Assembly (NCBI GenBank): GCA_964187785.1
Contig: OZ076409.1
Span: 9,550,001-9,614,000, forward strand
Source: Amphiscolops sp. MND2022
Taxonomy: Eukaryota
Length of the DNA stretch: 64,000 bases
Direction: 5' to 3'
The notes under the pieces are model-generated. The model did no database searches and was not told where the DNA came from. It saw only the letters and a list, made by a program, of their open reading frames with translations. The translations under genes were made by a program, and so were the position numbers. Every line of letters begins with the position of its first letter. Position 1 is the first letter of the stretch. Shown one piece after another: positions 16,513 to 53,105 of the stretch.

Positions 16513-16861
16513 ATGTCTTTCGAAATACTGTTCACAAGTGAAATGAAGAATGAGGAAGAACACTCAATTTGATAAGTCGAGTGGTTGTCTTCCAAAATTC
16601 CATCACAGTGATTGAGTTGATTGCAAACCACCTGCTTCTGTCATCGAAACTTCTGCCATGCGAAATGTTTCACATCTCCATAATCGATAACTCGTTTCGA
16701 AGTATTGTAAATCACCGTGGAAGCTTTTGAGATTGAAAAACACGCTAGCAGTAAAGTGCTGTGAACGGAGTCCGGACACTTGCTACTAGGCAATTGGCTA
16801 TAAGGACGTGTACTACTACAGGCAAATGTTACTGGGCTAGTTGCTACTGATTAGGTGCTAC

Positions 16862-19003: not shown

Positions 19004-19736
19004 TGTAACGATCACTTATCGAGTCCGAGAATTCGAAATTTTTTTTGAAAATTTCGTTCAAGGGACTAGATGCCCTCCCCTGAAAAGTCATATTCCGCTG
19101 AAGGATACCGTGTCTTTACCAAAGGACCTGTCCCCGAAATTGAAGAGGATTTGAGCGAGAGAAGCAGAAGAGACCCACTACGAACTAGACGACTACAGGA
19201 ATCCGCAAAACCTGTCAGAAAAAGACTCAAATTTCGGCCGATACGGACTAAACTCTGTTCCCATCGGTGCTTTCTTTAGCAGATCATTACAATATGTTGT
19301 GACCACCAAAATGAGTCAACTAGCTTGAACAAGCATCCGTGCTTGTGTCCCAGGCTAATTGCTGCCCCAAAAAGTGCTAATTATGCAGTAAATTGCGTAT
19401 TTTGTCGTGGTAATAGCTCGTGAGCTACTTATTTCGATTTCCTCTGTAGCTACAAGAGAACACGATTTTCCTTTTCCACCTCACCTGTTTTTAAAGGCTA
19501 TCTAAGCGTTGGTTTCGAAGAAAAAGCGTAATTAGCGTTACTGATAGCAATTACAGACTGGATCAGGCCGGCGAGCACTTCACAAGAAGCGGAATCCTCC
19601 TCTGACGGGACAGTTTTTACCCGAAGGAGGCAAAATGAGCTCATGGTCATGGGCGCCTGTCCCGGGCAAATACCCATATCATGTGTTCCTCTTACTCTCA
19701 TGGTTACGGCGACAGTGGTGAGAGCCTGTCGTTACA
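19004..19736 (+). repeat. 5' LTR of element 1 (733 bp)
   Basis: Near-identical to 37987-38718; one 1-bp indel seen by eye. Confidence 0.97.
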
Positions 19737-19752
19737 TAGAGACATCATTTTT

Positions 19753-19770
19753 TGGCGACCACAGAGGGAT
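19753..19770 (+). promoter_or_regulatory. primer-binding site, tRNA-Arg(UCG)-like
   Basis: TGGCGACCACAGAGGGAT resembles the complement of the 3' end of metazoan tRNA-Arg(UCG) (...GUGGUCGCCA), recalled rather than searched. Confidence 0.7.
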
Positions 19771-22670
19771 CGCTTCGAAGTGCTTCCCTTAATGGTTTTA
19801 AAAGAGCCGACCCTCTGGTGATTGACGCCAACTACGACCCGACTCTGACGAGGAGAAGACAGAAGCAGAGTTTTCTATGTTTTTACCCTGTATGTACATT
19901 ATTGAAGGCTTTATGCCTGGTGGTTAAAGGTAAATTTAGTGAAAAAGCGCTGTATGTTGTAATTCTGAAGCTTTTTAGTAGTTAACAGGTAACAGTCGAA
20001 ATAACCAACCCTCTTAACGGGTCACTCTCTAAAATTGGTCTAGCAAGCTGTCAAAAAGGCTGCTAGAGGTGTTAACAGGTATTTTCCAGCCTTTTTCAGC
20101 TTTTTATGACCAATGAAGCGAGTGTTGAGAAGAGGATGATCCTTGCTCAAAAGTACCTTACAACCTGCCGGAATGGAGTTGTACGACTCGCCTATCCCAT
20201 TTCTCGTACAGGCTACCCAGAAAAACGAAATTTGGTGGCAACGTACTACAAACACTGAACTATCTAGAGATGCAACCCGTTTGTCTCTAACTGTTCTGGG
20301 TGACGAGTAAAAGGAACGGAAAGATACAACTCGTCGATCCAGGTTGTATGAATACTTTGAGTCAGGTTGAAAAATTTTTTTTGATTGCTCAAAATTTTAT
20401 GTGTAATCACTTGCCAATGTTCTTACGAGCTTTCTGCAAATAGGCGTGTGCATTTGCACCTGTTTTGTGCGAAAAAAGTGCGTTTTTTCATGTATTTTCG
20501 ACGAAAAGTGCCAAATTTGGCCACTTTGAGGCGAAACACCTACATGAGCGCGAGCGCTCTTGGTGCCAGCCACACATTTGCAGAAATTAAATAAAAGTAG
20601 CTCAGAACTCTAATGAGTTCACAAAAACCAGGGCCAACTGCTCAAAGTTGCCCAAAAAAGCACTTAGTGCGAATCTTGTGAGAGAAAACCCCGTTTCGGA
20701 AAAATTAAGCACTTCTAGTAGTGGGGAGATTGATGTTGGAACTTCCAAACATCCCCACTGGGCCACAATTATGTCAGGGCACACCAGCCGGTACCTAGAG
20801 CTGCCTGTTTCGGTAATTATTGTCACTACCTGCCACAAAAACCTACAGAAATTGCAATTTTGAAGTTTTCCAATAGTATTCTTGAATGGAACTTGAACCG
20901 ATCATTGACTAACATTCCTATACCAAGAACAGTCCGCGGACTGTTGCTTCCAGTTTATTCGAAAGATTTAACGGTCAAGAGTGAAGACCGCACCCCAAAA
21001 TTCTTTTTCAGTGTGAAGAAAAGTTGAAAAACGTTGATTTTTAGTTAGTTTCAGGAGTGTCCGCATATATAATTAAAACCCCCTGGACACTCTGTCTTTT
21101 TGTTAGCTAGGAGCTTCCCAGCTCTCATTTTCTGTTTTTACATAAAAAATAACGCATAGTGCTGAAAACCGCGTCAAAAAATTCCTTTTCAGTGCTGAGA
21201 AAAGTGGAAAAACGCACTGAATCTGACCAAATTTCCACAAAACCGGACTGTCCAATTGTTAGGGTCGGGTCATAGATTCCCGAACCCTAGCTAAAAACTG
21301 GTTGCATTTTCGTAACCACCACAAAAAATAATACTAGTGCCAAAAATTTGGTGAGCCTAGCGCTAACCAAAGTTGAGAAAAGCTCTCTGACGTTTTGACA
21401 TCAGAACGAGCTGACCTAGCCGAAAATTTCCAAAACTATAAGACCGACAGTGCCTCAAACCTAACAGGCGCGGCTAATTGAGGACTTGTGGCAGTGCTGT
21501 GACTAGTGGGGCAACACGTTGACCTTGTTTTGCCTGCCGTAACGTTTGTAGTGTCGACCCTCTTAGCCTATTTGTGAAAAAAGTGTCAAAAAAAAGGACT
21601 GTTGCTGAAATAGTGTCTGAACTCAGTCGAAACCCTAGGAAAGCTCGCGAGCTTTCATCGGACCATTGAACCAGCATTGTGGGCGCCCATTGACAGCGCC
21701 TACTAAGTTTCGAGCCAATCGGTGTTGTATTTATTGAAAAATTGACTGAAAAGTACTGCTCAAAAAGAGGTGCAAAAAGGCAAATTTTTCGAAATTTTTC
21801 AGAAATGCCTGAACACCTTATTGGAAAAGTGGGGATAAATTGCAGCCCACCATCGTGACTTGTGCTAGTTGTTGCATTGTTAGCGAGAATACCGAACCGC
21901 TAACTCATACTGGTGCCTAGAAATTGTATAATAAGCGTGCATTTTGACTCCTACTGAGACATAGGTGTACCGCACGTCTATACCAAGGCAAAACAGTGCA
22001 CAACCCTCGGAGCTCAAATCGGTGCTCAATTCCGTGTACCTATATGTGTGTAAGATCCTCTGGTCAATTTTGAGCCAGATCCGATTCTTCAGGAATGAAT
22101 TTGAGCCACTTATATATTTTTGGTACTCTCCGAGAAAATTCAAGATTTGTTGTAAACGTCGCATAATTGTCTTAGCGAAAAGGTAGCATCAATCTGAGCT
22201 CATTTTTTGAGCTTGTGGTTTGGTAACAACTGCTTGAGTAAGTTTGAACTCGCTACGACCATTAGATGTGGTTTCGACCCATTCGAGACGTGCGTATCAT
22301 CATTCTGGCTCAAGTCTCCACCGAGGCGAAACTTAGAAAAGTGGGACGAAACCCGGTCTTCCATGTAAAAAATTTGCAAAAACTCCCTTGTCTAAACGCA
22401 TGTTAGTGAGTCCATCACTTAATGTGAATCGTGATAATTTTTCAAGTACTTTATACAATCGAACATCACGTACCAGACGATGAGTGAATTTTGAAAGACT
22501 CCAAAAATCTTTGGAACTATCAAAAGAACTTAAGTGTGTGTGACATAGTTGCCTCGTGAACCCTAAACGCACGGTTTTCGACCCCATGCAACGGTATCAA
22601 CGCGCAGTAAACGTTTCACGCCGAAGCGACTCCCTCATCGAATTTCGACTATTCCGAAATAGGCTAAGTC

Positions 22671-25145
22671 ATGAAAAACAACAACTTCCGCAGTCTTTGG
22701 AATTCGATCACAAAGACATTAAGTCGTTCGAACACCCATCGGCACTCACATCTTTCAAAGAGGGGTAGGGAAGCTGCCTCACTACACGCCAAAACACCGA
22801 AAACACCAGAACCCGTGGCGTGCGAGACAAACCTCAGTGCAATATCAGACCTAACCTCAGACCCCAGGGAGGAAGATTGGCCAACTGATGACAGTTTTAT
22901 TATGGAACCCGATTTTTCAGACCCTATGTCAGACAACGCATCAGAAGAATACCAGACCAAACAGGTCACCAGGACGGCAGACGATATCGGGGGATCAGCC
23001 GACGAAACAGGAAGTCAGGCGCACACGTCCAAATGGTTGCAAGAACTGACCAAAGTAGCTGTCACACCTTTCGGTACTGACGAAGCGAGAACATGGCCCA
23101 ACTCCAACAGAACAAATGCTGAGGAAGAAGCTGAAATGAGTTGCTTGAATGCTACTGGACAATTCAAGGCTCCCAGCATGGCAAGCGAGAGCACTGCGAA
23201 CACGGCAGAGATATTGCAACAAATGTCTTATGTCGGGGGTATGAATTATGCCAGAGCGCGCTTGCAAGAAGCCACTGCACCCCGGCCATCGGGAAAAAGT
23301 AGACAAATACGGCCTCCAGCTCTACTAGCACAGACTGGCACTACAGGACCTCATGGCGACTCGCGCTCGTCCTCACCTTCATCAAAAGCTGTGTCTGGTC
23401 GATCTTCAGCATACCGAGCTGTACATGAAGCAGCAAAGGCGCGTAAAGCCCTGCTGGAAGCCCAAGCTGGTGTGAAGCAAGCTGCTTCCCAACTATCTGA
23501 GCGCAAGGCGAGGTGCGATAGAGAACATCAGGCAATTGTGGAGGAGATTGAAGCTGTGCAATCTGAGTTAAGGACTTCCACTGGGCGACAAATGCAAGGA
23601 CAGGAAGTACAAGCTGCTCGCATGGATGCCATGGGTTATCGAATGGCTGAAATGAAGGATATGATGGCCCAAAGAGAGGTACGTATGGAAGCCCAAATTC
23701 AGGAGGTGTGCTCGCAAATACAGGCGATGGGCACTGCGCTAAAAAATGTCCAGCCTCAATCAACTCTACCAAACAACACCATCAAAGAACTATTGCAGGA
23801 GACTGACATGTCCCTACCAAAGCCTGTGAAGAGTGTTTCACTCAAACCAAAAGAGAGTATAATCACCACGAAGAAACCCTCAGGTTCCAAACAACCTATG
23901 GCGAGATACGCACCCCTACCTCAACCCCTTGTTTCGAGTGGAGAAGCTGTATCAACGTCCACGAAGCTTATCCTTCCAGCACAAACAAAGTTTATCCCGC
24001 CAATAACGAAGTCTCACGAAAAGGAACCAACGTATGAAGCAATAACCCTTGAAACTTCGAGCATGGGTATCACAGGTCTACGAGAACCCACGTGCATCAA
24101 CGAATTGACCAACACCACGAGTACCTTCCAAACAGCAAACGCGACTTTGGGAGAGTCAAATGCAGAATTCCAAACTGCGGACACTGGATTGCCCCCGGCC
24201 AATCCGTGCGCAAGCAGCACCCGACGCAGAGAAGTGATCATCTCGGAGAACACCGATGATTCAATTAACTCTACACGAGGTAGCAGTGTTCCACCACTGG
24301 CAACAACTGAAGAAGCACCAATATCACCGGAACAACTCAGATTCACTGAAGCGATATCAAAGGCAATGTCCAAAGAACTGGCGCCATTAATTGCTAATCG
24401 TGATCAGACGAGAGTCCGTCCTACAGTGTATAAAGGTACAAAAGACGGAACAGTTGACGGGTGGCTTCCACTGATGAAACGCTTCCTGGAAAGGGTACAT
24501 GCAAAATCATCAAACGTCGACAAGGCATGGGCAATAATTGATCACCTAGAAGGAGAAGCAAGAAACTACATTATCAATAAGTCAGAACCTGAACGAGATA
24601 CACCAGACAAGGTGTTCGCCCTCCTAGCCAGCAGATTCGGGACAGGTGGCAACCGTATGCACGTCCGGCAGACCTTTATGTCTCGCGTTCAACAGGAGAA
24701 GGAGGATTGGATGCAGTTTTTGGACGCATTAGAAGGCCTGCGCACCCAAGGTTTTCCAGATGAGCCTATCACTACCCGTCGTTACGAAATCCTGCAACGC
24801 TTCATAGATGGTGTGAACGACCCTACACTGCGACAAGAATTGGCTGTGGTGTACGCGGCGGAGACGTATCTGACTGAACCGCCCACTGTGGAGTCCTTGA
24901 GATTCACCACGCGGCAATTGCAGCGACACCGTCCAACAACGTCAAAGCCCTATGATCCTAGATATGCGATGAGATCAAGGCCTCACCCTTTTGTGCCAGG
25001 AAAAGTGGTTCATCCAGCACCAGGTCTGCCACAAAATGTGCTCCCTCCAAATCAAGGACAACAACACGAGGCAAAGCCCCAAATGGCCCCACCAGCTCCA
25101 GCGTCGGTACAACAAGCTGCACCGCCCCACAACCAGCGAGGATAG
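22671..25145 (+). CDS. gag: Gag of element 1 (coiled coil plus capsid-like region); frameshifted before its zinc knuckles
   Basis: 824-aa ORF with YKG..DGW...HLEGEARNYI..LASRFG capsid-like motifs. CFNCGLPGHFAREC and CVNCGMTEHSASQC knuckles follow in the pol frame. Confidence 0.85.
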   Translation: MKNNNFRSLWNSITKTLSRSNTHRHSHLSKRGREAASLHAKTPKTPEPVACETNLSAISDLTSDPREEDWPTDDSFIMEPDFSDPMSDNASEEYQTKQVTRTADDIGGSADETGSQAHTSKWLQELTKVAVTPFGTDEARTWPNSNRTNAEEEAEMSCLNATGQFKAPSMASESTANTAEILQQMSYVGGMNYARARLQEATAPRPSGKSRQIRPPALLAQTGTTGPHGDSRSSSPSSKAVSGRSSAYRAVHEAAKARKALLEAQAGVKQAASQLSERKARCDREHQAIVEEIEAVQSELRTSTGRQMQGQEVQAARMDAMGYRMAEMKDMMAQREVRMEAQIQEVCSQIQAMGTALKNVQPQSTLPNNTIKELLQETDMSLPKPVKSVSLKPKESIITTKKPSGSKQPMARYAPLPQPLVSSGEAVSTSTKLILPAQTKFIPPITKSHEKEPTYEAITLETSSMGITGLREPTCINELTNTTSTFQTANATLGESNAEFQTADTGLPPANPCASSTRRREVIISENTDDSINSTRGSSVPPLATTEEAPISPEQLRFTEAISKAMSKELAPLIANRDQTRVRPTVYKGTKDGTVDGWLPLMKRFLERVHAKSSNVDKAWAIIDHLEGEARNYIINKSEPERDTPDKVFALLASRFGTGGNRMHVRQTFMSRVQQEKEDWMQFLDALEGLRTQGFPDEPITTRRYEILQRFIDGVNDPTLRQELAVVYAAETYLTEPPTVESLRFTTRQLQRHRPTTSKPYDPRYAMRSRPHPFVPGKVVHPAPGLPQNVLPPNQGQQHEAKPQMAPPAPASVQQAAPPHNQRG

Positions 25146-28100
25146 TTCCCCAAGGAGCATGCTTCAATTGTGGATTACCCGGTCACTTCGCGCGGGAATG
25201 CCCAAATAAGGATCAAGCAAGGAAACCCATTGCTCGCGCTGCGCCAAACGAACGAGTAAATCTTTGCGAAAGTAATGTGGCCTCGGCATGTTCCGGTCCT
25301 ATGTTCTGTGTCAATTGTGGTATGACTGAACACTCAGCATCACAATGCCAAAACGTTCCAATACATGAAGATTTGGCCTACAGCCTCTGGGCTGCACAGC
25401 CATCAACCCCTCAGACAGTGAGCGATAGTGAAATGGTTCTCCCAGCTGAAGCCGTTCATGTGGCAACCTCTCTTACCGTTACGTGCGGTAAAATTCAAAT
25501 CCAGACGAGTCCAGAGCCAACTACTTTCGACCCTTCTGGACGCACGATAATGTCCGCCAGATTGCTACTGGCTATTGAGAGGGGAACACGCCCAGAACTC
25601 ACCATCGACGCTTTGATCGAAGAGATGACTACCAATGAAAATTATCAGCAATTGACTCTACCTCAGCCCGAAGAGTGGCAAGTCAAGGGAGTCACTTCAA
25701 CCTATCATGCCTATTCTCCTGTTCCAGTTAAAGTTTGCATTGATGGCGTCGACATGCGTTTTGGAGCGACTGTAATAACTGATGCGTTTCCTCCTGGAAT
25801 TTGCTTGGGACCTCGAGAGCTACGCTGCTACAATATTGATGCTCAAGAACCATCTGTTGAAGCGAGAATCGATGAGCGTGCGTCGCTCGTAGTTTCATTC
25901 ATGGTCCCTGATGATGTACCCATACCACTGCGCGGATTGATAGACACTGGATCGGGGGTATCTATCCTCACGTTCTCGGCCTATAACCGTGTCGCCGTGC
26001 GCACTGGTACACTTCTGCGACCCTACAATATTGATTTGTACGCGGCGAATGGAAAGACGATCAAAACTTTTGGTCTAGCAGAGAAAGTCAAATTCCAGCT
26101 GGGAGGTTACGAGTTGGAAACTAACTTCGTAGTGGTTGACGATGCTATGGGAGTGGAAGACTTTCTTCTAGGCAGGAACTTCCTCCGAGCCTATCAGGTC
26201 TTGGTAGACCTCACTGCGATGAAAGTCATTGTCCGAGCCCCCTCGGAACCAGTATGGTATCACGCCCATGCGCAGGTAAGTGATGAATCGCTTAGCTCGT
26301 CGGTAGCTACGGCAGAGGACATAGTTTTGCAACCCTTTGAACGCGCCATACTGCGCGCTAAGTTACTTGCAAGTGATCTAGAACCTTTCATATTCCGTGC
26401 TGTCTTAATCAATTTTCAAACACCTAATCGAATGTTGAAAAACGCCATATTTTTAGAAGACACTGTGGCAACCGTGGGGGAAACAGGCTTCCTTTACATC
26501 AGTTTAGGAAACCTTACTAGCAACGTCCAGCGGGTCAAAAAGGGAACCCTCTTGGGAACCGCAATACCCGTGACCATGGTCCATAGAGCCATCCCCCAAG
26601 TTGTCCCCGGACAAGCAACTGAAACTCAGCAGTCAAATGCAAGTTATGTTTGTAAAGTATATGAACAGATTAATCTTGATTCTTCTTCTGAATATAGCTT
26701 TTCATCTGAATTTGAGTTTTTGTCTTCTACTGATCCCTCGGAGCTAGGTTTGTCAGATCGCGAAACAAAAAAACGCACCGATCCGGCACTAATGGCCCCA
26801 ATACCGGGCCCGGAAGCGCAACTCGACGAAGTACGCAATTTATGGGGTCCGGCCGCCAGCGACACGCTCGATAAACTTTTAAAAGAGTTTGACGATTTGT
26901 TCATGAAGTACAAGGCTGACATTGGTAAGTGTAAAATTGCTAAGCACCCGGTGGAAGTAGAGCCAGGGGCTATACCCCACCGCGAAGGTGCACGACGAAT
27001 GTCGCCTGACAAAGCAGAACGGGCCAATCAAGAAGTTCGTGATTTGCTAGCTTTGGGAATGATACAACCTTCTCTATCCCCTTGGGCGAGTGGTATTGTC
27101 ATGGTCAAAAAGAATAGTGGTGAATTACGATTCTGTTGTGACTTTCGACCACTCAATGAAGTGACTATCAAGGATGCATATCCTCTACCACGAATTGACG
27201 AGAGTCTATCTCGATTAGGGAAGGCAAAGATCTATACCAGCATCGACGTAGCATGGGCATTCTGGCAAATTCCTGTCCGAAAGGCTGATCGTCAAAAGAC
27301 TGCCTTTGCTTGTGAACTTGGATTATTCGAATGGCGGCGCATGCCCTTTGGGATGTGCAATGCATCAGCGACATTTCAGCGGGCAATAGCGCGAGCGCTA
27401 CAAAGAATAGTCAATCGTGAAGGAAGTATGGTGATGGCCTATATCGACGACATCGTGATAGCTACTGAAACCATCGAAGACCACACGGATAGGCTTCGCG
27501 AAGTATTCCAGTGTCTACGCGAGGCCGGTTTCAAGATGAGAGTATCCAAATGTGATTTCATGAAGTCAGAAATCAAATACTTGGGTCGAGTGGTATCTGC
27601 AGATGGTATCCAACCAGATCCTAAGGCTGTCACGAAATTGAGAGATTGGGATATTCCGCGCACCAAAACCGAAATACAGAGCTTTCTGGGTTTTGCCAAC
27701 TACTACCGCGATTTTATCCCCTGGCATGCTAAATTGGTTGCCCCTCTGCACGCGATGACGGGTACAGGCTCTTCCTTTTTGTGGGGGGAGGAGCAGCAAC
27801 GAGCCTTCAACGGCATCAAAGTGGCACTAATGGAAGCCACCGCTTTGGCACAACCCGACACCGAAGGCGAATTCGTGCTAGACACAGATGCCAGCGGCGT
27901 AGCAATATCAGGTATTCTTCACCACTGGCAGGGACCACCCGAAAACCGCAAATTACGACCAATTGTGTTCGGAAGCAAAAAGTTGACTTCTACACAAGCC
28001 AAGTATGGAGCACCGAAACTGGAAATGTACGCTGCATACTACTTCATCTTGAAGAACCACAGCTATCTCTGTCCCCGAAAATTTACATTGAGAGTCAATA

Positions 28101-30142
28101 ATCAAGCCCTCTCATGGCTGAAGACATATTCGATGGATCAGGCGATTATTGGTCGATGGATAGTGGCTCTAGAAAAATATCATTTCAGCATTGAGCATCG
28201 ACCCCGAACACAACATCGAAATGCCGATGGCCTTAGTAAACGAACCAACGACTATAAAAAGCATGAGAAACAGCTACAAAATCTACCAGCAATTGCTAAC
28301 AAATGGAACTTCCTATCGCAAGAAGAATATGACAGACTCCCACTAGCCCCATGGTTTGATGTTCAAGGACGCGTGATACCGAATCACCCCGACCTGCCTA
28401 CGCACTTGCAGAGATTGGCCACCCAACACTCACCTCAAACCACAACGATCGCTCCCACACGGAGAAGCGGACAAAGTAAACAAAGTGCGATCATGCGCGA
28501 CAAAGCGATGAAAGCGCCTATGCCTACACTGCCCAAACCCGAATTGGAGATGCCTGCAGATTTCTATCCCGAATATCCCGAGGATTGGCTAGAATCAACC
28601 GAAGAATATCATTGGGACTACTTGCTTCCCACACATGCTGCCAATGTCCCATCAAGAACGACCTACCCGTTGACTGGGGAGGAAAAGCAAGCGACTGATA
28701 CCGCGCCCGAATACGTGAAGCAGATGGCACTAGTAGTTGAAAGTGTATCGATGGAATTACATGAACACGCAAATACAGTTCATGGATTGAAGGATCTCCT
28801 TTCGGCACAGAACCGCGATGTCCACATCTTGGCCAACAAGAAAATGGTAATGAAAGAATCAATAGATGACGACATATTTCCCGAGAACGTGCGCCGATTC
28901 GCCAAAAATTATTACAAACAGAAGAAGAACCTCCTGCTGATTAACGCCAACGGCGTGTTGTGTGTGAGATATCCCAAGAATCAGAGAGCACTGCATGAAC
29001 GCCCATGTATGATTGTGATGCCCCAATTATACCAGCATGAGATCTTGTTCAAGGCCCACGACGCGATGGGACATCAGGGTATCGCAAAGGTGCTGGCAAA
29101 GATACAAGAACGCCACACCTGGCCAGGAATACGCCGCACCATTGGGCAATACGTTAGCCAATGCATAACCTGTCAACAGGTACGCGATAAGCCTGGTGAT
29201 GTACGATTTCACTTGAAGAACATTCAGAGTGGCTACTTCAATGAGTTGGTTCAATATGATCACTTGAAAATTTGTCCCTCAGATGATGGCAACACTGGAA
29301 GCCTGGTCATCATTGATCACTTTTCCAAACTCGCGGAAGCAGTACCATGCAACCACGACGAGTACGATGCAGCAACCACCTCGAAGATATTGCTGCAAAA
29401 ATGGTTTGCCCGACATGGTACACCAACAAGGATGCAATCAGACAACGCTCCAAACTTTACCGCGGCAGTATCTACTGAGTTCAGGAGAGCAGCACAGGTG
29501 ACTAAGGTTACCTCAACCGCTGGTCACCCTAAAACTCAAGGACTGGTGGAACGACAAAATAGAACATTGCTTACCCTGTTGCGTGTGTTTTGCTCCCGAC
29601 GAATGCGAGACTGGGACCAATACTTAGATGAAGTGATGGGTGCGTATAATTCTACACGTCATGCAACGACTGGGTTTTTCCCGTATATGTTGACGAGAGG
29701 CATGGAAAAAGCAATACCCCTGACCTTCCTGTACCCAGAATTCGCCACTCAGTCATTCGAATCGCACGAGGCATATGTGGAACATGTCTTGGCCCGACAG
29801 CAAGAGATCCATGACTTAGTTCGTCGGAATACACATCAAGCCCAACAACGACAGAAATTGAAATACGACCGAGCTATTCGTGCTAAAGCTTATGAAGTGG
29901 GCGAACCTGTTTGGGTCTTCTGCCGATACATTCCTCAAAAGGGATCTCCCAAACTGATGAGAGCTTGGCGTGGTCCTCACAAAGTAGCACGAGTGTTACA
30001 GGAAGGACGCGTCTACATACTCGACACTGGTCAAAAGGTACATTTTGAACGACTAAAACCGCATCACGGTGGTCCAACAGAGTGGGCCGCAATCCCTGCG
30101 CACAACGGTGAAGTTGGATCCAGACCCAGAGCAGTCTCATGA
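25142..30142 (+). CDS. pol: Zn knuckles plus Pol (protease, RT, RNase H, integrase) of element 1
   Basis: LIDTGS protease; MPFG..YIDD RT; TDAS RNase H; HDAMGH..CITC and D-D(35)E (QYDH/SDNA/VERQN) integrase; WRGPH GPY/F-like motif. Confidence 0.95.
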   Translation: MVPQGACFNCGLPGHFARECPNKDQARKPIARAAPNERVNLCESNVASACSGPMFCVNCGMTEHSASQCQNVPIHEDLAYSLWAAQPSTPQTVSDSEMVLPAEAVHVATSLTVTCGKIQIQTSPEPTTFDPSGRTIMSARLLLAIERGTRPELTIDALIEEMTTNENYQQLTLPQPEEWQVKGVTSTYHAYSPVPVKVCIDGVDMRFGATVITDAFPPGICLGPRELRCYNIDAQEPSVEARIDERASLVVSFMVPDDVPIPLRGLIDTGSGVSILTFSAYNRVAVRTGTLLRPYNIDLYAANGKTIKTFGLAEKVKFQLGGYELETNFVVVDDAMGVEDFLLGRNFLRAYQVLVDLTAMKVIVRAPSEPVWYHAHAQVSDESLSSSVATAEDIVLQPFERAILRAKLLASDLEPFIFRAVLINFQTPNRMLKNAIFLEDTVATVGETGFLYISLGNLTSNVQRVKKGTLLGTAIPVTMVHRAIPQVVPGQATETQQSNASYVCKVYEQINLDSSSEYSFSSEFEFLSSTDPSELGLSDRETKKRTDPALMAPIPGPEAQLDEVRNLWGPAASDTLDKLLKEFDDLFMKYKADIGKCKIAKHPVEVEPGAIPHREGARRMSPDKAERANQEVRDLLALGMIQPSLSPWASGIVMVKKNSGELRFCCDFRPLNEVTIKDAYPLPRIDESLSRLGKAKIYTSIDVAWAFWQIPVRKADRQKTAFACELGLFEWRRMPFGMCNASATFQRAIARALQRIVNREGSMVMAYIDDIVIATETIEDHTDRLREVFQCLREAGFKMRVSKCDFMKSEIKYLGRVVSADGIQPDPKAVTKLRDWDIPRTKTEIQSFLGFANYYRDFIPWHAKLVAPLHAMTGTGSSFLWGEEQQRAFNGIKVALMEATALAQPDTEGEFVLDTDASGVAISGILHHWQGPPENRKLRPIVFGSKKLTSTQAKYGAPKLEMYAAYYFILKNHSYLCPRKFTLRVNNQALSWLKTYSMDQAIIGRWIVALEKYHFSIEHRPRTQHRNADGLSKRTNDYKKHEKQLQNLPAIANKWNFLSQEEYDRLPLAPWFDVQGRVIPNHPDLPTHLQRLATQHSPQTTTIAPTRRSGQSKQSAIMRDKAMKAPMPTLPKPELEMPADFYPEYPEDWLESTEEYHWDYLLPTHAANVPSRTTYPLTGEEKQATDTAPEYVKQMALVVESVSMELHEHANTVHGLKDLLSAQNRDVHILANKKMVMKESIDDDIFPENVRRFAKNYYKQKKNLLLINANGVLCVRYPKNQRALHERPCMIVMPQLYQHEILFKAHDAMGHQGIAKVLAKIQERHTWPGIRRTIGQYVSQCITCQQVRDKPGDVRFHLKNIQSGYFNELVQYDHLKICPSDDGNTGSLVIIDHFSKLAEAVPCNHDEYDAATTSKILLQKWFARHGTPTRMQSDNAPNFTAAVSTEFRRAAQVTKVTSTAGHPKTQGLVERQNRTLLTLLRVFCSRRMRDWDQYLDEVMGAYNSTRHATTGFFPYMLTRGMEKAIPLTFLYPEFATQSFESHEAYVEHVLARQQEIHDLVRRNTHQAQQRQKLKYDRAIRAKAYEVGEPVWVFCRYIPQKGSPKLMRAWRGPHKVARVLQEGRVYILDTGQKVHFERLKPHHGGPTEWAAIPAHNGEVGSRPRAVS

Positions 30143-32447
30143 AGATATTCGAGATGATGCATCACAACCTTCCTATCGTGCGGAAGAACCACTGTCGGAA
30201 GCCAGCAACGTCTCCTTGCCTTCCCGACAAAGACATTGGATGGATACTCGACTGCGTACTCGTACACGCGCTGGTGGCAGTCGACTACATTACCAACAGT
30301 TCGATCATTCCGAAACGGAATCTGAAGACGAACGATCTGATGTACTTCTATCAAGCGCTCAGGTGAATCCCGACAAGAGTGTGATTCTGTCGCCACTTGT
30401 GGATGAACCCGTGCCTATCCTTGAAATGCCGATCTTGCCATTACCTGCTAAGGAGGCTCTGTTCTCAGAGAACGAAGCAATACCTGACGTCAATGAGAAT
30501 ACCGAGAGTCCTCCTACTCAGGCATCTGCCCCTACTCAGATACCTACCAAGAATGCTAGCATTTCTTTAGCCGGTACGTCTGCTCCACTGTTAACGAACC
30601 CATCTCTCACGGATATGCTGAGTAATTTCCCCATTTCTCCATTGATTGACGATAGTGTTCCGAATTCACCCTTGGAGAATGATGGTAACGAATCGCTAAT
30701 ATCCGATGGTCAAGAAGAGTTAACTCCCCCCATAGTTATTCCAACCAACAACACAACCATAGCAGTAAAGCTTCCTGGTGTTCCCAGAGGACATCAACAC
30801 AGCAGACCACGAAGACATCCGCCCGGCAGAGCAAGGCTGCGAGCCTCGCTGCCGCGTGGCCATCAACAAAGAGGCGCTGTTAGGGGAGCTCGCAAGAGAG
30901 GATGCCCCAGAGGCAGACCACCTCAAGCAACACGTACTGAACCCAATGCCTCCACCCGTGTTCATCATACCCCATCTGTGGATACTGATTCTTCTGCTCC
31001 TAGTGCAGCAGTCACCTCAGATCAAGCGCAAACGCAGGAGTTGCCTAATACTGGCTATGGCCTACGACGTAATCGTGCCCCCAGATACCGCTGTGGAACA
31101 TGTGGCCTACGAGATTGTAAATGCAATAATCTGGTCCACGCGGACTTCCCAATTAGACCCCGGGGAGTCTTACTGACACGTGAGAAGGAGACGCCACTCC
31201 CAAACGGCACAGTCGACCGTTTGACCATTCGAGCCGAGAAGACGTACACTGGGCTACAACGCAGTGAAAACCCGTATCCTATAGACTTTATCCTATCCAA
31301 GATGAAAGGCTCGACAGTAGCGAAGGCCCCATGTCCGAGATTCAAGGAATGGACTTATGATCTTCGCGGTCTTGAGTTCACACTGCCTGTTACTGTTCCT
31401 CCATTACCCGCTAATATTGCTTTCGGTCCCTTTAACTATGAACGAGAACCCAATCAGATGGTACGTTGCATTCCAGCTGACCTCTTGTATGATAGGTATA
31501 ATGTCGTTGCAACGCCAGGGGATGTGTATCAACCAACAACTCATTGGTGGCTATTGGTCACCGCCCCTCGCGCTTCTGATTTGGTTGACCCTTTAACCCT
31601 GCACACTTGTCTCGAGAGTTTACGAACCATGGCCTCTCCTAACAAAATAACATGTTTCCACGTCATCGACTTGTATCGCGGCAAAGTCAAGTTTGAGTGG
31701 TGGTTGGAACTTATCATCGCGAGCTTATCGAGTTTCCCTCGAATCCGCTTTCTCGACGAGTGGACACATTCTTTTCCACGACCCACTTCACTCCAATCTG
31801 CCTTGCACGCGCTGGATACATGGTCCAGGGCGAACATCGATAATCAATCCTTGCCTCGCTCGGTGTGGCAAGACTTGGGAACGATTAAGGGCTGTCTACC
31901 GGCTTCCTGTGATGATGGCCTCTCCAATGATCCTGGACGAGAACTGGTATATCATGGAATCGTGCGACCTCAACTGGTCGACTACATACAGTATGCCAGC
32001 ACGGATTTCCTACAAGCTTCCCATCATGTTGTTTTGTGTTGCCCCGCGAATCTGGAGACTAATTCTGCCGCCCTTCGCTACGTAATGCGTGAGCATGGAG
32101 CCGACACCATATTTCGACTCCGACCGGAAGTTGGAAATGTATTGACGCTCCCTGTGTCTATGATTAACGACAAACCCCAAACTATACATTTATTGATTAC
32201 GCGCGCCACGCCCCGTTGCCCCATGATAGCTGATACTCTTTTCGTATGTCTGGAATATTTGAAAACGTTACTCGAACGCCTAGAAGCCACCGAGGTTTAT
32301 TTTGCTATCATCGATCCCGAGCGCCCGATACGTAATCTCTTTGATTTTTATACCTGCTTAATGGACGCGTTCGCTGATACACCTTTGTCTGTGGTATTAC
32401 ATGATCGCATTTACGTTTCCATCGCGAGCATCGCTAGCTTTCCGTGA
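30069..32447 (+). CDS. probable Pol C-terminal extension: low-complexity linker, CxxC-rich motif, tandem macrodomain-like (TARG1/OARD1 class) folds
   Basis: 792-aa ORF overlapping the pol end. Motifs IQYASTDFL..VVLCCPANL..IHLLITR..LFVCLEYL and VRCIPADL..WLLVTA..LHTCLESL parallel TARG1-type macrodomains. Confidence 0.65.
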   Translation: MVQQSGPQSLRTTVKLDPDPEQSHEDIRDDASQPSYRAEEPLSEASNVSLPSRQRHWMDTRLRTRTRAGGSRLHYQQFDHSETESEDERSDVLLSSAQVNPDKSVILSPLVDEPVPILEMPILPLPAKEALFSENEAIPDVNENTESPPTQASAPTQIPTKNASISLAGTSAPLLTNPSLTDMLSNFPISPLIDDSVPNSPLENDGNESLISDGQEELTPPIVIPTNNTTIAVKLPGVPRGHQHSRPRRHPPGRARLRASLPRGHQQRGAVRGARKRGCPRGRPPQATRTEPNASTRVHHTPSVDTDSSAPSAAVTSDQAQTQELPNTGYGLRRNRAPRYRCGTCGLRDCKCNNLVHADFPIRPRGVLLTREKETPLPNGTVDRLTIRAEKTYTGLQRSENPYPIDFILSKMKGSTVAKAPCPRFKEWTYDLRGLEFTLPVTVPPLPANIAFGPFNYEREPNQMVRCIPADLLYDRYNVVATPGDVYQPTTHWWLLVTAPRASDLVDPLTLHTCLESLRTMASPNKITCFHVIDLYRGKVKFEWWLELIIASLSSFPRIRFLDEWTHSFPRPTSLQSALHALDTWSRANIDNQSLPRSVWQDLGTIKGCLPASCDDGLSNDPGRELVYHGIVRPQLVDYIQYASTDFLQASHHVVLCCPANLETNSAALRYVMREHGADTIFRLRPEVGNVLTLPVSMINDKPQTIHLLITRATPRCPMIADTLFVCLEYLKTLLERLEATEVYFAIIDPERPIRNLFDFYTCLMDAFADTPLSVVLHDRIYVSIASIASFP

Positions 32448-32656
32448 TTTTTTTTGTTGTTTTCTCGTATTCTTAGTTAGTTAAGCTTAATGAGTTGACG
32501 AAGTATGAGTGTATTTCTTGCTTTACCTTACTTATCCTTATGTCATTAGTTCCGCTACCTGGTTACCTGTCTTTGGTACTGCCCCAATGTGATTTTATGT
32601 ATTGCACTGCAACTGATCAACACGCAGTCAACTTGCGCTCTTTCAGAGACTTGGTG

Positions 32657-35600
32657 ATGAATCACGGAGACAAAGCTGACGAAGTACCCCCACGATGTTC
32701 CAATGAATCACCTGCAATGGGACAGCGCATATATGACACTGCGCGTGTTCAGCGAACATCTCAGGTCGCTTTCATTCGCGACCGCATTGACCAAGGTCTC
32801 TCATCCGCTACTGTGGCTGGAGTGGCAGCGATAATTGCACAGATGGAGTCCCAGACCCAAGCTCCAATGCTGACCATCTCAATCACGTCTGGTTTTCCTG
32901 GGTTTCAGCGGTCCATGACCTTCCATGAAGGAGTGTGGTTTGGTCATGATTTGACTCATCACTTCACTGACGATCGTGCTGCGATTTCCTATAGTTTACC
33001 CAGTGGCGGCGTCCACCAGACCCGTTCTTTGCAGATTCCATCTTGCCCTCCTCCACCACTACCGGTACCTGCATCTCAATCAACCGCGCGTGCCGGAGAG
33101 CCCCGGGCTCTCAGGCGCGCCCGCCTGCACCAGCGCCTCCTGATATGACGAATAGACCGTTGGCTGAACAGGCAGTTATCTCAGCCTTGCAAGCTGTCGC
33201 CATTGACCCACATTATTCTGACTTTATGACGTCCATGGAGCGATGCTGGCCGGAGTTACGCCAAATAACCCTTCCCACAGTCACAATTCAGAACACGAGT
33301 GCCCTCACTGCGCCACCCGCACTGACTGTTCCACATGTGAACCCGCTGTCTGAACAACCGGGACATTCCCGCACAGTCACTATGGAACGCAGTCGCTCAT
33401 CCTCACGCTCCTCATCTTCTCACAAGGGGGGAGGAGAGCGTCGTCCTGCTTCCCGAAAAAGGAATGATCGTTCACCGACAAGGGCAAGCACAAGTACAAT
33501 ACCGCCAATGGCTGTTCGCGACAGCCCGTCGAGTAAACCACCACCGGATAAGAGAGTCTCCAACGAAAAAACCACGCCAGCATCCATAGAAGTACCCATG
33601 ACTGTCAACGCATCTGATCACACAAAAACAATGGTGTCGGAAGCACCCGTGCTTCCTTCGCCGCCACCGAGCCAATCCACTGAAGGACAAGGAATAATGC
33701 AACCACTGCCACCCTCACAACCGACATCGCGTGAATCGCTAGCACAAAGGGCGATTCCCAAACCATCGTCGTCAAAGCAGCAGCAAAGCAACCCCACAAT
33801 CGGCTACCAAGGGACACCCCAGGCGCAGAGAACCGTTGAGGATGTGATGGATGATTATCCCGGCCTGAAGGTGACCAACAGCGGACCGACGGGTACGCCG
33901 CTCAGAAAGCAAGCGATCCAACATCCAACGAAAAGAACGTTCACCAAACAGCCGACATACTTGAGCCCGATGCAAAACTCCAAGGGTAGTCTGGTAACGA
34001 AAGACGCCAGGCGTATCTGGGAATCGGCAGTAATCATATCACCAGAGTGGTTGTTCGAAAAGAACATGTGTCCTCCCAGCGACGAACAACACGCGAGGCT
34101 GAAGAAAGACCACGTATCGGTGTTCATGACTCGCCCACTCCGCATGGACCATACCCCCACGAACGAGCCGCAATGGTTGGGGAAGGCCACGAACATACTG
34201 CCCAACGTGGAGGATAATTATCTGGATGCCCTTAACATAGACCTCCGTGGGCAATTCGAAGAAAGGTACTTCCTCCGCGCAGAAGAAACGTATGAAGTCA
34301 ATCCCAGATATTCCCGTGACTTGGAGGCACAGCTTCCCATGCCAAAAGAAAGGTTGCAGCGTGCGCGCTACGCCTTACTTATCGACTCGACATTCTTGAA
34401 AAACATTCCAATAGACAATGTGCTCTCAGACGTGATGGTTTTCACCCTGCCGCTATCCCGCATTCCCGAGATGGCTGAAGTCCTGGTCACGATGTTCGAC
34501 CCCGAGATGACAGGGACGTACAAGGAACCACCCCCGCGCAGGGTTATCATCAGCAATGTTTTCGACCACCTGGCCTGCGAAGGTCTGATGACTCAGATCG
34601 TCAATGTGGAGATGCTGAATCCAACTCCTGCACAACGAGCAACAGTGCGTAATGCAGTAACCAATCTGGCGGGAGCTATGGAGAAGGCCCAGAATATTCT
34701 GAAGAGGAAATTGAAGGTGCCGGTGATCTTTGTTACACCTCCTGGCTTCTGCAAATGGCATCCAGCCTTACAACGTTTCGTCTACCTTGTAACTGAGGTG
34801 TGTCAAAGCAGGGAAGTGGACTTCGCGATCTGTGCGCCAAATCTACGTGTCAGTAGCAGCGATTTGCGCCCCTCTTGGCTATCATATATGGGGTATATCG
34901 CTTCAGTGTCCAAGGTGCTGCAATCCGTCGAGAAAACTGGAAACGCACAACTGACTGTCGATGACGCAGTTTACTTCGATCATGGTACCAGGATGGCTGT
35001 GTTAATGTTTAACGAAGAAGGAGAGAGACGCCTCCCAGAACCTACTAAAAGTGAGTGCGAAGCCATTCGTATGCATAACTGGATGGAGCGCGCGCGCTCC
35101 TCCGGTGGAAAAACCTCGATAAAGGATGACCTGGCGGAAGTCACTGCAGCGATGGGGAAAGTGCCCAACGAGAGAGAAATTGAAAGAGCGATCCCACGAG
35201 TTCAATTCGCCCAAGACCTCACAATCGACCAGCTGTCTGCGGGCATGAGATACATCACCGCCAAACTAACGAGCGAGACCCAAGCGGAGATCCAGGCCCT
35301 TAGTGGCACCTACGATGGGTGGTACCAGCAACTTCAGACTACCACCATTGCCAATATAGCAAAAGAGCTTGGAATGTCAACCGATCATTTTGCGATCTGT
35401 CTGGGGCTGGGCTGGAGTCCAGATGTAACTCGCGTGGAATTCGGAATCGAGGAGCAACAAATCATCGAGATTAACCAGATCATTGGTGCCATGCAGCTGA
35501 ACGAAGTTTTGGCCCTGATGCTGACCTTTGGTCAGAAGCGTTTCGTTGCGGGTCCAATGATGATTCTGACGGACTTAATAACAGAGAGTAACCTGGAATG

Positions 35601-37059
35601 GTTGTTGTCTTACCTGGTGTTGTCGCGTGGGGACATCAAAGGACTCACTGCTCTAGCCGAACTGTTGCAGAAGAAGGACGCACAAGATTATCCCGCACAC
35701 CTGGCGAAAATGATCACTTCTTTGCACCATTGGATTTACTGTAGCTTAGTCTTCTTTTCGGGACTCTTTGTTGGAGTTGATAAGAATCAACCACTTTATG
35801 ACGGACGTCAATTGGTGACGGAGGTGGCGGGCTTCCTTACACCTAACCAGCTGGCGGACTTCACACTGTCCGAAGTGGAAGACTTAATACCAGTGTTAGC
35901 ACCCGTGCTAACTCCGATATTTGGTCCGACTGGGATTTTCCGATACCCAACTAAACCCCTACGACTTGCCTCAGAAACACCATCGGTGTCCATCCTGACA
36001 TTTATAAAGAACGTAAAGCCCCATAACTATCAACAGATGCTGGAACGTGGGTTGTACTTGAGGGTACCCCGCATAAATACGACGATCAAAAATGAAACCC
36101 AGCAGGATGAGAATCTATCGGGAATACTGAAAGCTCGAACGAAGAAGGCTTGCCCTCTCCCTCGAGAGTATGGCCCAGTAAACTGGTATAACTCGCCTCT
36201 GGATGACAAGGGCATCTCAATCCGATTCAACTGGAGTTTCGCTCACCTGCGGAACTATGTGATTGAGTGCGTGCAAGCTTTGGGTGGTCACACCAATCGC
36301 GATTACCATTTTCAGCTGATCAAGATCCCGGCGAGATATTGGCGAGGACCAATAAGCTATGCCAGAGCCAAACCTATCAGCATGATCGAACGCGGGTTTG
36401 ACGAGCAATATGCATACAGGGATCACTACAAGTTGGGTGTATGGATGTCTCGCACCTTGGAGGAACGTCAGGGAAGACTAAAAGGATTAGTCGTACCCCC
36501 ACAAATCTCGCCAGTATGGAATCCTGAGGCCAGAGTAACCATGGGGAGTGATATGCCAGCAGAAACCTGCTACCACATCATGGAGCTGCTGAGTGATCCT
36601 CTGGGACCAGAATGGGAAGCTTCAAGACAAATAATCGAGCATGAAAATAGAGACAACTGGTCCAGAGCCTGCGGGCTCTGGGGCAGACCAGACCTGCGCC
36701 CTAAAATCAGCGCGAAGCAGAAGCGCCCCATCGCTACAAGGAACAGGCCGATCGACTTGCCACATCTATTCAATGCAAGTCGACTAGATGTGCAGATTCC
36801 GGCTGACGTCCCCGCATCCAGCTCAACCAACGCCACTGAATCTAATGCCGCACAAGAGCATTCCCCTGAGGCATCCACCCCAATACCAACGACCAGTGAC
36901 CCTTGCAGTTCCAGTGCCGCTCCCAATACACCGGAGACTGCCCATAACGCCTCTGGACCAGTACTGCGAGAAGCCACGGTCCGTAGAGGATCATTGTCCG
37001 AGATGGAAGAGAAGAAGAGCACTTCGCCCAGGGCGCGCCACTCCTCCGCCACACAATGA
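32657..37059 (+). CDS. accessory ORF3 of element 1 (ORFs 32495-33148 and 33043-37059, probably one gene), SGNH-fold-like middle region
   Basis: 1338-aa open frame plus an N-terminal piece that joins by a 1-nt correction in the CCCC at 33101-33104. Motifs YALLIDS, RRVIISNVFDHL and VPVIFVTPPG. No obvious env hallmarks. Confidence 0.7.
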
Positions 37060-37986: not shown

Positions 37987-38718
37987 TGTAACGATCACTT
38001 ATCGAGTCCGAGAATTCGAAATTTTTTTTGAAAATTTCGTTCAAGGGACTAGATGCCCTCCCCTGAAAAGTCATATTCCGCTGAAGGATACCGTGTCTTT
38101 ACCAAAGGACCTGTCCCCGAAATTGAAGAGGATTTGAGCGAGAGAAGCAGAAGAGACCCACTACGAACTAGACGACTACAGGAATCCGCAAAACCTGTCA
38201 GAAAAAGACTCAAATTTCGGCCGATACGGACTAAACTCTGTTCCCATCGGTGCTTTCTTTAGCAGATCATTACAATATGTTGTGACCACCAAAATGAGTC
38301 AACTAGCTTGAACAAGCATCCGTGCTTGTGTCCCAGGCTAATTGCTGCCCCAAAAATGCTAATTATGCAGTAAATTGCGTATTTTGTCGTGGTAATAGCT
38401 CGTGAGCTACTTATTTCGATTTCCTCTGTAGCTACAAGAGAACACGATTTTCCTTTTCCACCTCACCTGTTTTTAAAGGCTATCTAAGCGTTGGTTTCGA
38501 AGAAAAAGCGTAATTAGCGTTACTGATAGCAATTACAGACTGGATCAGGCCGGCGAGCACTTCACAAGAAGCGGAATCCTCCTCTGACGGGACAGTTTTT
38601 ACCCGAAGGAGGCAAAATGAGCTCATGGTCATGGGCGCCTGTCCCGGGCAAATACCCATATCATGTGTTCCTCTTACTCTCATGGTTACGGCGACAGTGG
38701 TGAGAGCCTGTCGTTACA
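37987..38718 (+). repeat. 3' LTR of element 1 (732 bp)
   Basis: Direct repeat of 19004-19736, preceded by purine-rich ggggagtga. Confidence 0.97.
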
Positions 38719-39913: not shown

Positions 39914-40564
39914 TCATTTCTTCACAAATAATAGCCGCAGCTCCAATCGGTTTTCTGTTCCTGAAAGCCCTTTGTCGTAAGCGCGAGAATTCGTGCTTGT
40001 GAATCCGTCTTTGAGACGGTCGTTACCTTGCTTACTCTTAGAATTGTTCTTAGGTTCTAAGTTTTGCAGCACTTCGGAATATCCTTCCGGTCTCTCGGCC
40101 GGAACGTTCCATCTCTCTTTGGTCAATTGTCCCGATCCGGCCATAACTGCATTTTGGATTTGAGGTAAAATTTGGCTACTAATTGCTTCATTTATGGCTC
40201 TTTGGATCTGAACACTGACGCTATTCATCATTTCATCCATCTCTCGAGATATACGAGAATTTAACTCACTCGACAATCTATTGATCTCAACACTTGAACA
40301 CTCTCTGATTGAATTATGGCCTAATTCGGTATTTGGACTAGGTCCATTATTTTCCGGGTTTGGGAACTCATTCTCATTTTCTTCTCCAAACTCATCTCCG
40401 AATAAGCTTTCTGGCCTACCGGTCTGATTACTATTCACACTTTCATTTCTCTCATTTCTATCAAAATGATTTCTTCCGAGCATAATATCTAAATTCTCAA
40501 TGTCTGATAGCATATCTGCTTCTCTAGATTTCCTTGTTTTCTTCTGTTTTCTAGTGGTAGGCAT
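39914..40564 (-). CDS. Gag N-terminus copy in the 3' LTR reading through into host flank (216 aa)
   Basis: Near-identical to ORF 54822 up to NSRAYD, then continues in flanking DNA; expression unknown. Confidence 0.45.
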   Translation of the reverse strand: MPTTRKQKKTRKSREADMLSDIENLDIMLGRNHFDRNERNESVNSNQTGRPESLFGDEFGEENENEFPNPENNGPSPNTELGHNSIRECSSVEINRLSSELNSRISREMDEMMNSVSVQIQRAINEAISSQILPQIQNAVMAGSGQLTKERWNVPAERPEGYSEVLQNLEPKNNSKSKQGNDRLKDGFTSTNSRAYDKGLSGTENRLELRLLFVKK

Positions 40565-53103: not shown

Positions 53104-53105
53104 AG

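What the first reader, a model, noticed from the sequence alone, without database searches (positions are those of the whole stretch)
31413..32447. Tandem TARG1/OARD1-like macrodomains at the end of a retrotransposon Pol
Seen: two consecutive segments follow the TARG1-type pattern (y.kGDlf..lahCisaD..G.v...iyyLiTk...L..sLe.m). The GAGIA and PRIGCG loops appear replaced (NSAAL, AIIDPE). The ORF overlaps the pol end and probably continues it across a small deletion near 30110. Established: macrodomains bind or remove ADP-ribose, and viral ones counter PARP defences. Inference: an integrase-tethered chromatin-targeting or counter-defence module, occupying the position of the chromovirus chromodomain and possibly catalytically dead.
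Basis: partly seen in the sequence, partly recalled or inferred. Interest (0 to 1): 0.78.

Follow-up and report, generated by a model that had tools for sequence, protein, structure and literature searches.

The report
Dead TARG1 macrodomain pair on integrase
A family of 20-kb jumping genes encodes one giant protein whose integrase end carries two domains predicted to fold like the host's ADP-ribose-removing enzyme TARG1 but lacking its active-site residues, likely reused as a grip on chromatin rather than as an enzyme, while distant relatives keep a single copy with the catalytic pair intact.

Summary
Confirmed and extended. The ORF lies in a young 19.7-kb Ty3/gypsy element (LTRs 99.9% alike). 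Both segments fold as TARG1-class macrodomains when modelled (M2 Z 17.3; M1 Z 10.1). The window copy is frameshifted near 30.1 kb, but 58 of 72 close relatives carry integrase, M1 and M2 in one frame. The catalytic Lys/Asp pair and both glycine loops are replaced; M2 has Glu at TARG1 Gly123 in 85 of 88 copies, matching a published mutant that cannot bind ADP-ribose. New: distant elements of the same clade end in one macrodomain; one lineage keeps the Lys/Asp pair (TARG1 E 2e-26), others have lost it. The tail also holds an AT-hook-like motif, a four-cysteine motif and a possible protease site. Best reading: a captured host eraser turned into a non-catalytic binding module on integrase (0.45); the main rival is release as a free accessory protein. 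No function was tested. Six literature searches gave no description; macrodomains in fish retroviruses are known, and the scan earlier noted a different gypsy capture on other DNA (e1-7470572).

The parts
19004..19736 (+). 5' LTR (733 bp, TG...CA)
   Evidence: 99.86% identical to the 3' LTR; ends; a CTA(T) repeat flanks the element, read as a possible target-site duplication
19753..19770 (+). probable primer-binding site starting TGG, 16 nt after the LTR
   Evidence: sequence; tRNA not identified by any search
22668..25145 (+). gag frame (PNMA-like capsid region)
   Evidence: Pfam PNMA E 0.004, below cut-off; in one frame with pol in intact copies P0149, P0153, P0166
24962..30142 (+). pol frame: zinc knuckle, protease, RT, RNase H, integrase
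   Evidence: Pfam RVT_1 1e-35, RT_RNaseH, Integrase_H2C2, rve
30100..30120 (+). frameshift of this copy, just after the integrase C-terminal domain
   Evidence: tblastn of natural copies changes frame here
30117..31079 (+). Pro/Ser/Arg-rich variable linker of the Pol tail
   Evidence: 31-38% identity between subfamilies against 69-91% for RT and IN; composition
30573..30635 (+). conserved 21-residue island in the linker ending in N-[FY]-P-[ILF]; possible protease site or short binding motif
   Evidence: N-[FY]-P in 95 of 100 copies holding both anchors
30909..30923 (+). AT-hook-like RGRPP motif in a basic patch
   Evidence: RGRP in 99 of 100 linkers; Pfam AT_hook only weak, E 0.2 in 2 of 49 members
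31092..31124 (+). four-cysteine motif C-x2-C-x4-C-x-C, possible zinc site
   Evidence: intact in 157 of 165 sequences holding its start; low pLDDT in the model
31398..31769 (+). M1: shortened TARG1-class macrodomain, no loop-1 helix, Ala/Ser at the catalytic Lys place, D-x-Y-R-G-K loop
31965..32414 (+). M2: full-length TARG1-class macrodomain; D309 kept, N-S-A-A-L for loop 1, R375 at Lys84, D-P-E-R at Gly121-Leu124, Pro/Ser at Asp125
32477..33148 (+). extra open frame, 223 codons, unknown
   Evidence: no Pfam family
32995..37059 (+). extra ORF, 1354 codons, unknown
   Evidence: no convincing Pfam or PDB match; likeness to an SGNH domain not above shuffles
37987..38718 (+). 3' LTR (732 bp), preceded by a purine run

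Best explanation
Intact copies of this Ty3/gypsy family encode one Gag-Pol protein of about 3,000-3,200 residues that ends, after integrase and a long linker, in two domains predicted to have the TARG1 macro fold but lacking its catalytic and ADP-ribose-binding residues, and these likely serve as a non-catalytic grip that, with the AT-hook-like and four-cysteine motifs, would hold the integration complex on host chromatin. Shown: the fusion, the predicted fold, the residue changes and their conservation across subfamilies. Inferred: an ancestor of the clade captured a host TARG1-like gene at the end of pol; most lineages lost the active site but kept the fold; this lineage duplicated it; the remodelled cleft (conserved Asp, Glu and Arg) now binds a protein partner, most plausibly a basic chromatin peptide, or is sealed and serves as a surface.
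For: Fusion: 58 of 72 close relatives with a complete integrase end carry M1 and M2 in the same ORF, 46 of them over 2,900 aa; the other 14 end early. Fold. Dead site: with TARG1 numbering read from the PDB alignments (end register agrees), Lys84 is Arg in 85 of 88 copies, Gly121 Asp 87/88, Gly123 Glu 85/88, Asp125 Pro or Ser 86/88, Gly43 Ala 85/88. TARG1 G123E and G43E neither bind ADP-ribose nor hydrolyse (PMC5928194, passages). Still selected: M1 44-65% and M2 43-46% identical between subfamilies against 31-38% for the linker, with near-invariant new motifs (M1 D197, Y199, G201 88/88; M2 S329, R415 88/88). DNA/chromatin hints on the same tail: RGRP 99 of 100, four-Cys motif 157 of 165. Origin: the M2 profile hits the tails of 8 of 22 distant Pols at E 2e-20 to 2e-5, best of 340 shuffled tails 0.24; one of these lineages matches human TARG1 at E 2e-26 with Lys84 and G-C-G-x-D kept. 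Precedent for chromatin readers fused to retroelements: passages of bioRxiv 2021.11.30.470311; for tandem macrodomains that do not bind ADP-ribose: SARS-unique domain, abstract of PMC2674928.
Against: No binding, localisation or insertion-site data. The linker holds a conserved N-[FY]-P-[ILF] site (95 of 100) that fits retroviral type 1 protease sites (PMC3185560, passages), so the tail may be cut off integrase. The macrodomains change faster than integrase (43-65% against 69-89%), which fits relaxed constraint or conflict as well as tethering. M2 is acidic (pI 5.0-6.5 in five representatives), which speaks against the macro folds themselves binding DNA or RNA as TARG1 and SUD do. SCO6735 lacks both catalytic residues and is still active (PMC9411070, passages), so sequence alone cannot prove death. 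M2 keeps the Asp at TARG1 position 20 (86 of 88). Residue equivalences rest on a weak profile alignment (E 0.008) and predicted models.
Confidence: 0.45

Rival explanations
1. The element's protease cuts at the conserved N-[FY]-P site, releasing a roughly 600-residue accessory protein (AT-hook, four-Cys motif, M1, M2) that acts apart from integrase, for instance on the element's own DNA or RNA, in the particle, or against host silencing.
For: Site kept in 95 of 100 copies within a linker otherwise 31-38% identical. It fits the type 1 consensus: aromatic-Pro, Asn at P2, branched residue at P2'. Five relatives have N-F-P 222-227 residues before the RT YxDD motif, a plausible protease/RT junction.
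Against: The window's own lineage has no N-F-P at that protease/RT position (P0002, P0365). Yeast Ty1/Ty3 sites are described as unlike most retroviral ones. The conserved island is about 21 residues, longer than a protease site, and could be a binding motif. Distant macro-bearing relatives have no N-[FY]-P in their tails.
Confidence: 0.27
2. The domains still bind or remove ADP-ribose by an altered mechanism (Arg375 in place of Lys84, the Asp at position 20 kept) and counter PARP-based silencing or clear ADP-ribose at the integration nick.
For: D309 86/88 and R375 85/88 conserved. SCO6735 is active without the Lys/Asp pair. A related lineage keeps the pair. SIRT6 ADP-ribosylation of KAP1 silences L1 elements (PMC4695847, passages).
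Against: Both glycine loops are replaced and Glu sits at Gly123, the change that abolishes binding in TARG1. M1 lacks loop 1 altogether. Most lineages of the clade have lost the site.
Confidence: 0.12
3. The macro folds are kept only as structural ballast or an oligomerisation scaffold for the polyprotein, with no host partner.
For: Fast divergence, 9-30% identity between lineages of the clade; low pTM (0.49) for the pair.
Against: Surface-loop residues are near-invariant across subfamilies only 40% alike; the domain was kept across a clade whose RTs are about 50% identical and appears doubled in two lineages.
Confidence: 0.13
4. The ORF is a neutral passenger or artefact: a host gene fragment lying by chance next to pol.
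For: The window copy is frameshifted; no Pfam match.
Against: Inside paired LTRs; in frame with integrase in 58 relatives from three subfamilies; homologous tails in distant elements.
Confidence: 0.03

Closest known systems
Human TARG1/OARD1/C6orf130 (PDB 4J5S, 2LGR), ALC1-like macrodomain class with DarG and SCO6735
   Same: Best structural match for both domains (Z 17.3 and 10.1); minimal macro fold; homology by sequence through relative P0488 (E 2e-26).
   Different: 15-16% identity; Lys84/Asp125 pair and both glycine loops replaced; two copies; part of a retrotransposon polyprotein.
TARG1 G123E laboratory mutant (PMC5928194, passages)
   Same: Glu at the Gly123 place; the mutant is folded and stable but does not bind ADP-ribose.
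   Different: The mutant still binds RNA through basic patches; M2 is acidic and has further changes.
SARS-unique domain (Mac2/Mac3) of coronavirus nsp3 (PMC2674928, abstract)
   Same: Tandem macro folds in a viral polyprotein that fail to bind ADP-ribose and took on another ligand.
   Different: Weaker structural match (Z 7.7-8.2 for M2); RNA virus; binds G-quadruplexes through lysines.
Chromovirus integrase chromodomain (MAGGY; passages)
   Same: Host-derived module at the C-terminal end of a Ty3/gypsy Pol.
   Different: No chromodomain here; other fold; about 440 residues away from the integrase C-terminal domain; targeting not shown.
Macro-domain ORFs in fish epsilon-like endogenous retroviruses (Basta et al. 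2009, seen only as one sentence in review PMC4977317)
   Same: Macrodomain captured by an LTR retroelement.
   Different: Retroviruses; described as additional ORFs; class, position and activity not seen (paper not held).

Membership tests
ALC1/TARG1-like macrodomain fold | Minimal alpha/beta/alpha macro fold closest to TARG1/DarG | tested here: met
   Predicted models: M2 Z 17.3 TARG1, 16.1 DarG; M1 Z 10.1 TARG1, tied within 1 with 2AFC, DarG
ALC1/TARG1-like macrodomain fold | Sequence homology to TARG1 | tested here: met
   M2 profile to TARG1 E 0.008; M2 profile to P0441 tail E 8e-11; P0488, a member of that cluster, to TARG1 E 2e-26. For M1 only structure and a weak M1-M2 profile match (E 5e-4, probability 31%)
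TARG1 hydrolases (active enzymes) | Catalytic Lys84 | tested here: not met
   M2 Arg 85/88; M1 Ala or Ser 86/88. Met in P0439-P0441
TARG1 hydrolases (active enzymes) | Asp125 and the G-C-G diphosphate loop (Gly121, Gly123) | tested here: not met
   M2 D-P-E-R-[PS]; M1 D-[ILW]-Y-R-G. Met in P0439-P0441
TARG1 hydrolases (active enzymes) | Loop 1 glycines (Gly41, Gly43) | tested here: not met
   M2 N/Y/H/S/Q and Ala; segment absent in M1. P0488 keeps Gly43 only and has Tyr at Asp20
TARG1 hydrolases (active enzymes) | ADP-ribose binding and hydrolysis | not testable with these tools
   needs purified protein
Pfam Macro PF01661 | Score above gathering threshold | tested here: not met
   No hit for window domains; met for P0440 (23.4 bits) and P0488 (24.9 bits), cut-off 22
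Ty3/gypsy LTR retrotransposons | LTRs and PR-RT-RH-IN order | tested here: met
Chromoviruses | Chromodomain after integrase | tested here: not met
   No Chromo family in Pfam scans of the pol and tail frames; the tail folds as macro
Integrase-tethered targeting modules | Module stays on mature integrase and biases insertion | not testable with these tools
   No genome held; possible cut site in linker

The most novel reading that the evidence does not exclude
A whole undescribed clade of Ty3/gypsy elements captured the host ADP-ribose eraser TARG1 at the end of integrase; one branch still runs it as an enzyme, showing that ADP-ribosylation restricts or guides retrotransposon integration, while this branch turned it into a doubled pseudo-enzyme that reads a new chromatin ligand, a targeting module of a kind other than the chromodomain.
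Probability: 0.3. Interest if true: 0.82.

Novelty: new variant of a known kind. Interest (0 to 1): 0.62.

Why it matters
Host modules at the end of Ty3/gypsy integrase are the main known way these elements choose where to insert. A TARG1-class macrodomain in that place, present across a clade in a series from intact catalytic pair to dead to doubled, gives a natural set of proteins for asking whether ADP-ribosylation acts on retrotransposons and how an enzyme fold is turned into an adaptor. The domains are invisible to Pfam, so such tails are being missed in annotation.

Tried and rejected
Pfam on the window domains: nothing. Single-sequence PDB searches: nothing useful. ESM Atlas: scores 0.86-0.90, macro clusters among the rows, leads only. 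The profile comparison was an artefact of overlapping flanks and is dropped; the trimmed comparison is weak. The search of 1.84 billion representatives gave 410 hits; the 150 shown were short, close fragments, the other 260 were not seen. No genome is held, so no dN/dS, copy number or insertion-site analysis. No sequencing run was listed, which is no evidence on expression. Locus scans found no relative, so LTRs and extra ORFs of the distant relatives were not seen. The idea that the 1354-codon ORF is a dead SGNH esterase (by eye; P0438 has Lipase_GDSL_2 at E 9e-7) failed: no BLAST match, 47 of 200 shuffles scored as high. The first RT tree had an unstable long outgroup and did not finish its careful search; it was rebuilt as quick trees on 19 and 18 rows, truncated relatives left out. 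Tails of P0449, P0458 and P0469 were called macro-like by eye; the M2 profile does not score them and the later profile included them, so it is circular for them. No host organism was named by any search; a literature search with a recalled guess at the host genus gave one unrelated paper. Two papers sought by DOI were not held. No complex prediction was run.

Full report
Observation. The finding's stretch is the 3' end of a 796-codon frame (30057-32447, +) that overlaps the end of a pol frame (24962-30142) with protease, RT, RNase H and integrase in Ty3/gypsy order. Paired LTRs at 19004-19736 and 37987-38718 are 99.86% identical, so the element is 19.7 kb long and inserted recently. It also holds two further frames of 223 and 1354 codons that I could not identify. 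No call named the host; that it is an animal is an inference from the element type and from the named relatives (a fish and a pseudoscorpion).

Fusion. A search among longer proteins gave 21 hits, several with RT and integrase domains and the whole tail. tblastn of natural copies changes frame on the window near 30.1 kb and near 25.1 kb, while the copies themselves are single ORFs; P0149 (2966 aa) and P0166 (3178 aa) span gag to tail. Copies 97% identical to the window pass the 30.1-kb point in frame, so the break belongs to this copy. Of 122 Pol relatives examined (the best 120 of 614 hits plus two cluster members), 72 have an integrase at least 65% identical with a complete C-terminal domain; 58 of these carry M1 and M2 in the same ORF and 14 end before the end of M2. 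Many of the 58 are near-identical copies of one subfamily; three subfamilies are represented.

Fold. Pfam does not see the domains. An AlphaFold2 model of window 31080-32444 on 49 sequences (mean pLDDT 70, pTM 0.49) matched TARG1 first in Foldseek (E 2.1e-8) and VIA (Z 17.3, rmsd 2.8, 141 aligned, residues 296-443), then DarG; viral macrodomains filled the viral library list. As that was the second domain only, I folded the first alone: TARG1 was again first (E 5.7e-5; Z 10.1, rmsd 3.1, 117 aligned, tied within 1 with other members of the same class). M1 and M2 resemble each other weakly but along their length (E 5e-4, probability 31%), as expected of an old internal duplication; this is an inference.

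Active site. TARG1 uses Lys84 and Asp125 (PMC9411070, passages; PMC7050489, passages, writes Glu125, but the PDB sequence shows Asp). Reading the register, and counting in 88 sequences that cover both domains (88 of 333 hits, five clusters at 70% identity), M2 has Arg at Lys84 (85), Asp at Gly121 (87), Glu at Gly123 (85), Pro or Ser at Asp125 (86) and Ala at Gly43 (85); the Asp at position 20 is kept (86). G123E and G43E are the TARG1 mutants that neither bind ADP-ribose nor hydrolyse, though they still bind RNA (PMC5928194, passages). M1 has no loop-1 helix, Ala or Ser at Lys84 and a near-invariant D-x-Y-R-G-K loop. Against a firm verdict of death: SCO6735 works without the Lys/Asp pair, and the register rests on a profile alignment at E 0.008 and on models.

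Selection. Between three subfamily representatives RT is 80-91% identical, integrase 69-89%, M1 44-65%, M2 43-46%, the linker 31-38%. The macro folds thus change faster than the enzymes but more slowly than the linker and keep near-invariant loop residues. No DNA of the copies was available for dN/dS.

The rest of the tail. The linker has RGRP, the core of an AT-hook (motif recalled; Pfam support weak), in 99 of 100 copies; a C-x2-C-x4-C-x-C motif follows in 157 of 165. A 21-residue island ends in N-[FY]-P-[ILF] (95 of 100), which fits retroviral type 1 protease sites (PMC3185560, passages). Five distant relatives have N-F-P at a plausible protease/RT junction, but this lineage does not. Whether the tail stays on integrase is therefore open.

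The clade. Among 22 distant Pols with a complete integrase end, 8 have a tail scored by the M2 profile at E 2e-20 to 2e-5 (P0425, P0427, P0428, P0439, P0440, P0441, P0444, P0452); the best of 340 shuffled tails scored 0.24. P0515 and P0516 score E 0.003 and 6e-5. Seven of the other 14 have tails under 300 residues, and three (P0449, P0458, P0469) look macro-like by eye only. P0439-P0441 (RT 53% identical to this family) end in one domain with the Lys and the G-C-G-x-D loop; P0488 from that group matches human TARG1 at E 2e-26 and passes Pfam Macro, though it has Tyr at Asp20 and only one loop-1 glycine, so even its activity is not assured. P0425, P0427 and P0428, the nearest outside lineages, have degenerate loops (Y-D-P-N-R-G, L-D-W-D-R-D) like those of M1 and M2; P0427 appears to have a second, separately degenerated copy (by eye). 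In quick trees the macro-bearing rows group together on integrase (SH-aLRT 88, 15 of 18 rows) and lie within one RT clade (98) that also holds a macro-less and a helicase-tailed element; the macro tree is poorly resolved but splits the same two groups. One capture followed by repeated decay is the simplest reading; a fresh recapture of TARG1 in the P0439 lineage is not excluded, and I ran no clade test.

Mechanism. I commit to a non-catalytic binding module on the integrase tail, most likely a grip on chromatin helped by the AT-hook-like and cysteine motifs (0.45). M2 is acidic, so a protein partner is likelier than nucleic acid for the macro folds themselves. Rivals: release by the protease as a free accessory protein (0.27), structural role only (0.13), altered ADP-ribose activity (0.12), passenger (0.03). 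All functional steps are inferred.

Known systems and novelty. Macro ORFs are reported in fish endogenous retroviruses (one sentence of review PMC4977317; the original was not held). Chromatin readers fused to retroelements are well known (passages), and tandem macrodomains without ADP-ribose binding exist in the SARS-unique domain (abstract). Searches for a macrodomain in Ty3/gypsy Pol (listings only, 30 of 42 papers shown, 25 of 52, 20 of 29, 20 of 21) showed no title or abstract start describing it; subscription journals, repeat-library entries and all supplements were unseen and may hold an annotation. I rate this a new variant of a known kind, interest 0.62.

Noticed in passing
window 39973-55972 (-): A second Ty3/gypsy element with 1.74-kb LTRs 99.5% alike, gag 53106-54032 and pol 47902-53118 on the minus strand. 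Inside it, antisense to pol, lie two long plus-strand frames (43390-45489, 699 codons, with a Cys/His cluster that looks like a zinc finger by eye; 46454-47686, 410 codons) and a minus frame 41625-42485; none has a Pfam match. A frame of 216-253 codons starts within each LTR.
   Followed up: partly
window 32995-37059 (+): 1354-codon extra ORF inside the LTRs of the macro-bearing element; unidentified. An SGNH-like pattern by eye was not supported.
   Followed up: partly
P0439, P0440, P0441, P0488: Gypsy Pol lineage ending in a TARG1 homologue with the catalytic Lys/Asp pair; the best candidate for an active retrotransposon-borne ADP-ribose eraser.
   Followed up: partly
P0456 (3697 aa): Related gypsy Pol whose tail carries an Upf1-like helicase (AAA_11, AAA_12) instead of a macrodomain.
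   Followed up: no
P0438: Sister-lineage Pol with a truncated integrase followed in frame by an SGNH/GDSL esterase region (Lipase_GDSL_2 E 9e-7, below cut-off); GDSL ORFs are known in rotifer LTR elements (PMC5408684, passages).
   Followed up: no
window 5100-11500: Tandem array of an 89-bp unit with a higher-order two-unit pattern, and a 1.85-kb duplication.
   Followed up: no
window 19737-22667: 2.9-kb leader between the 5' LTR and gag with no ATG frame of 70 codons or more on the plus strand.
   Followed up: no
window 13013-17323 and 56072-58690: Nested inverted repeats (74-88% complementary), possibly old DNA transposons; a 1.19-kb direct duplication next to a dinucleotide run.
   Followed up: no
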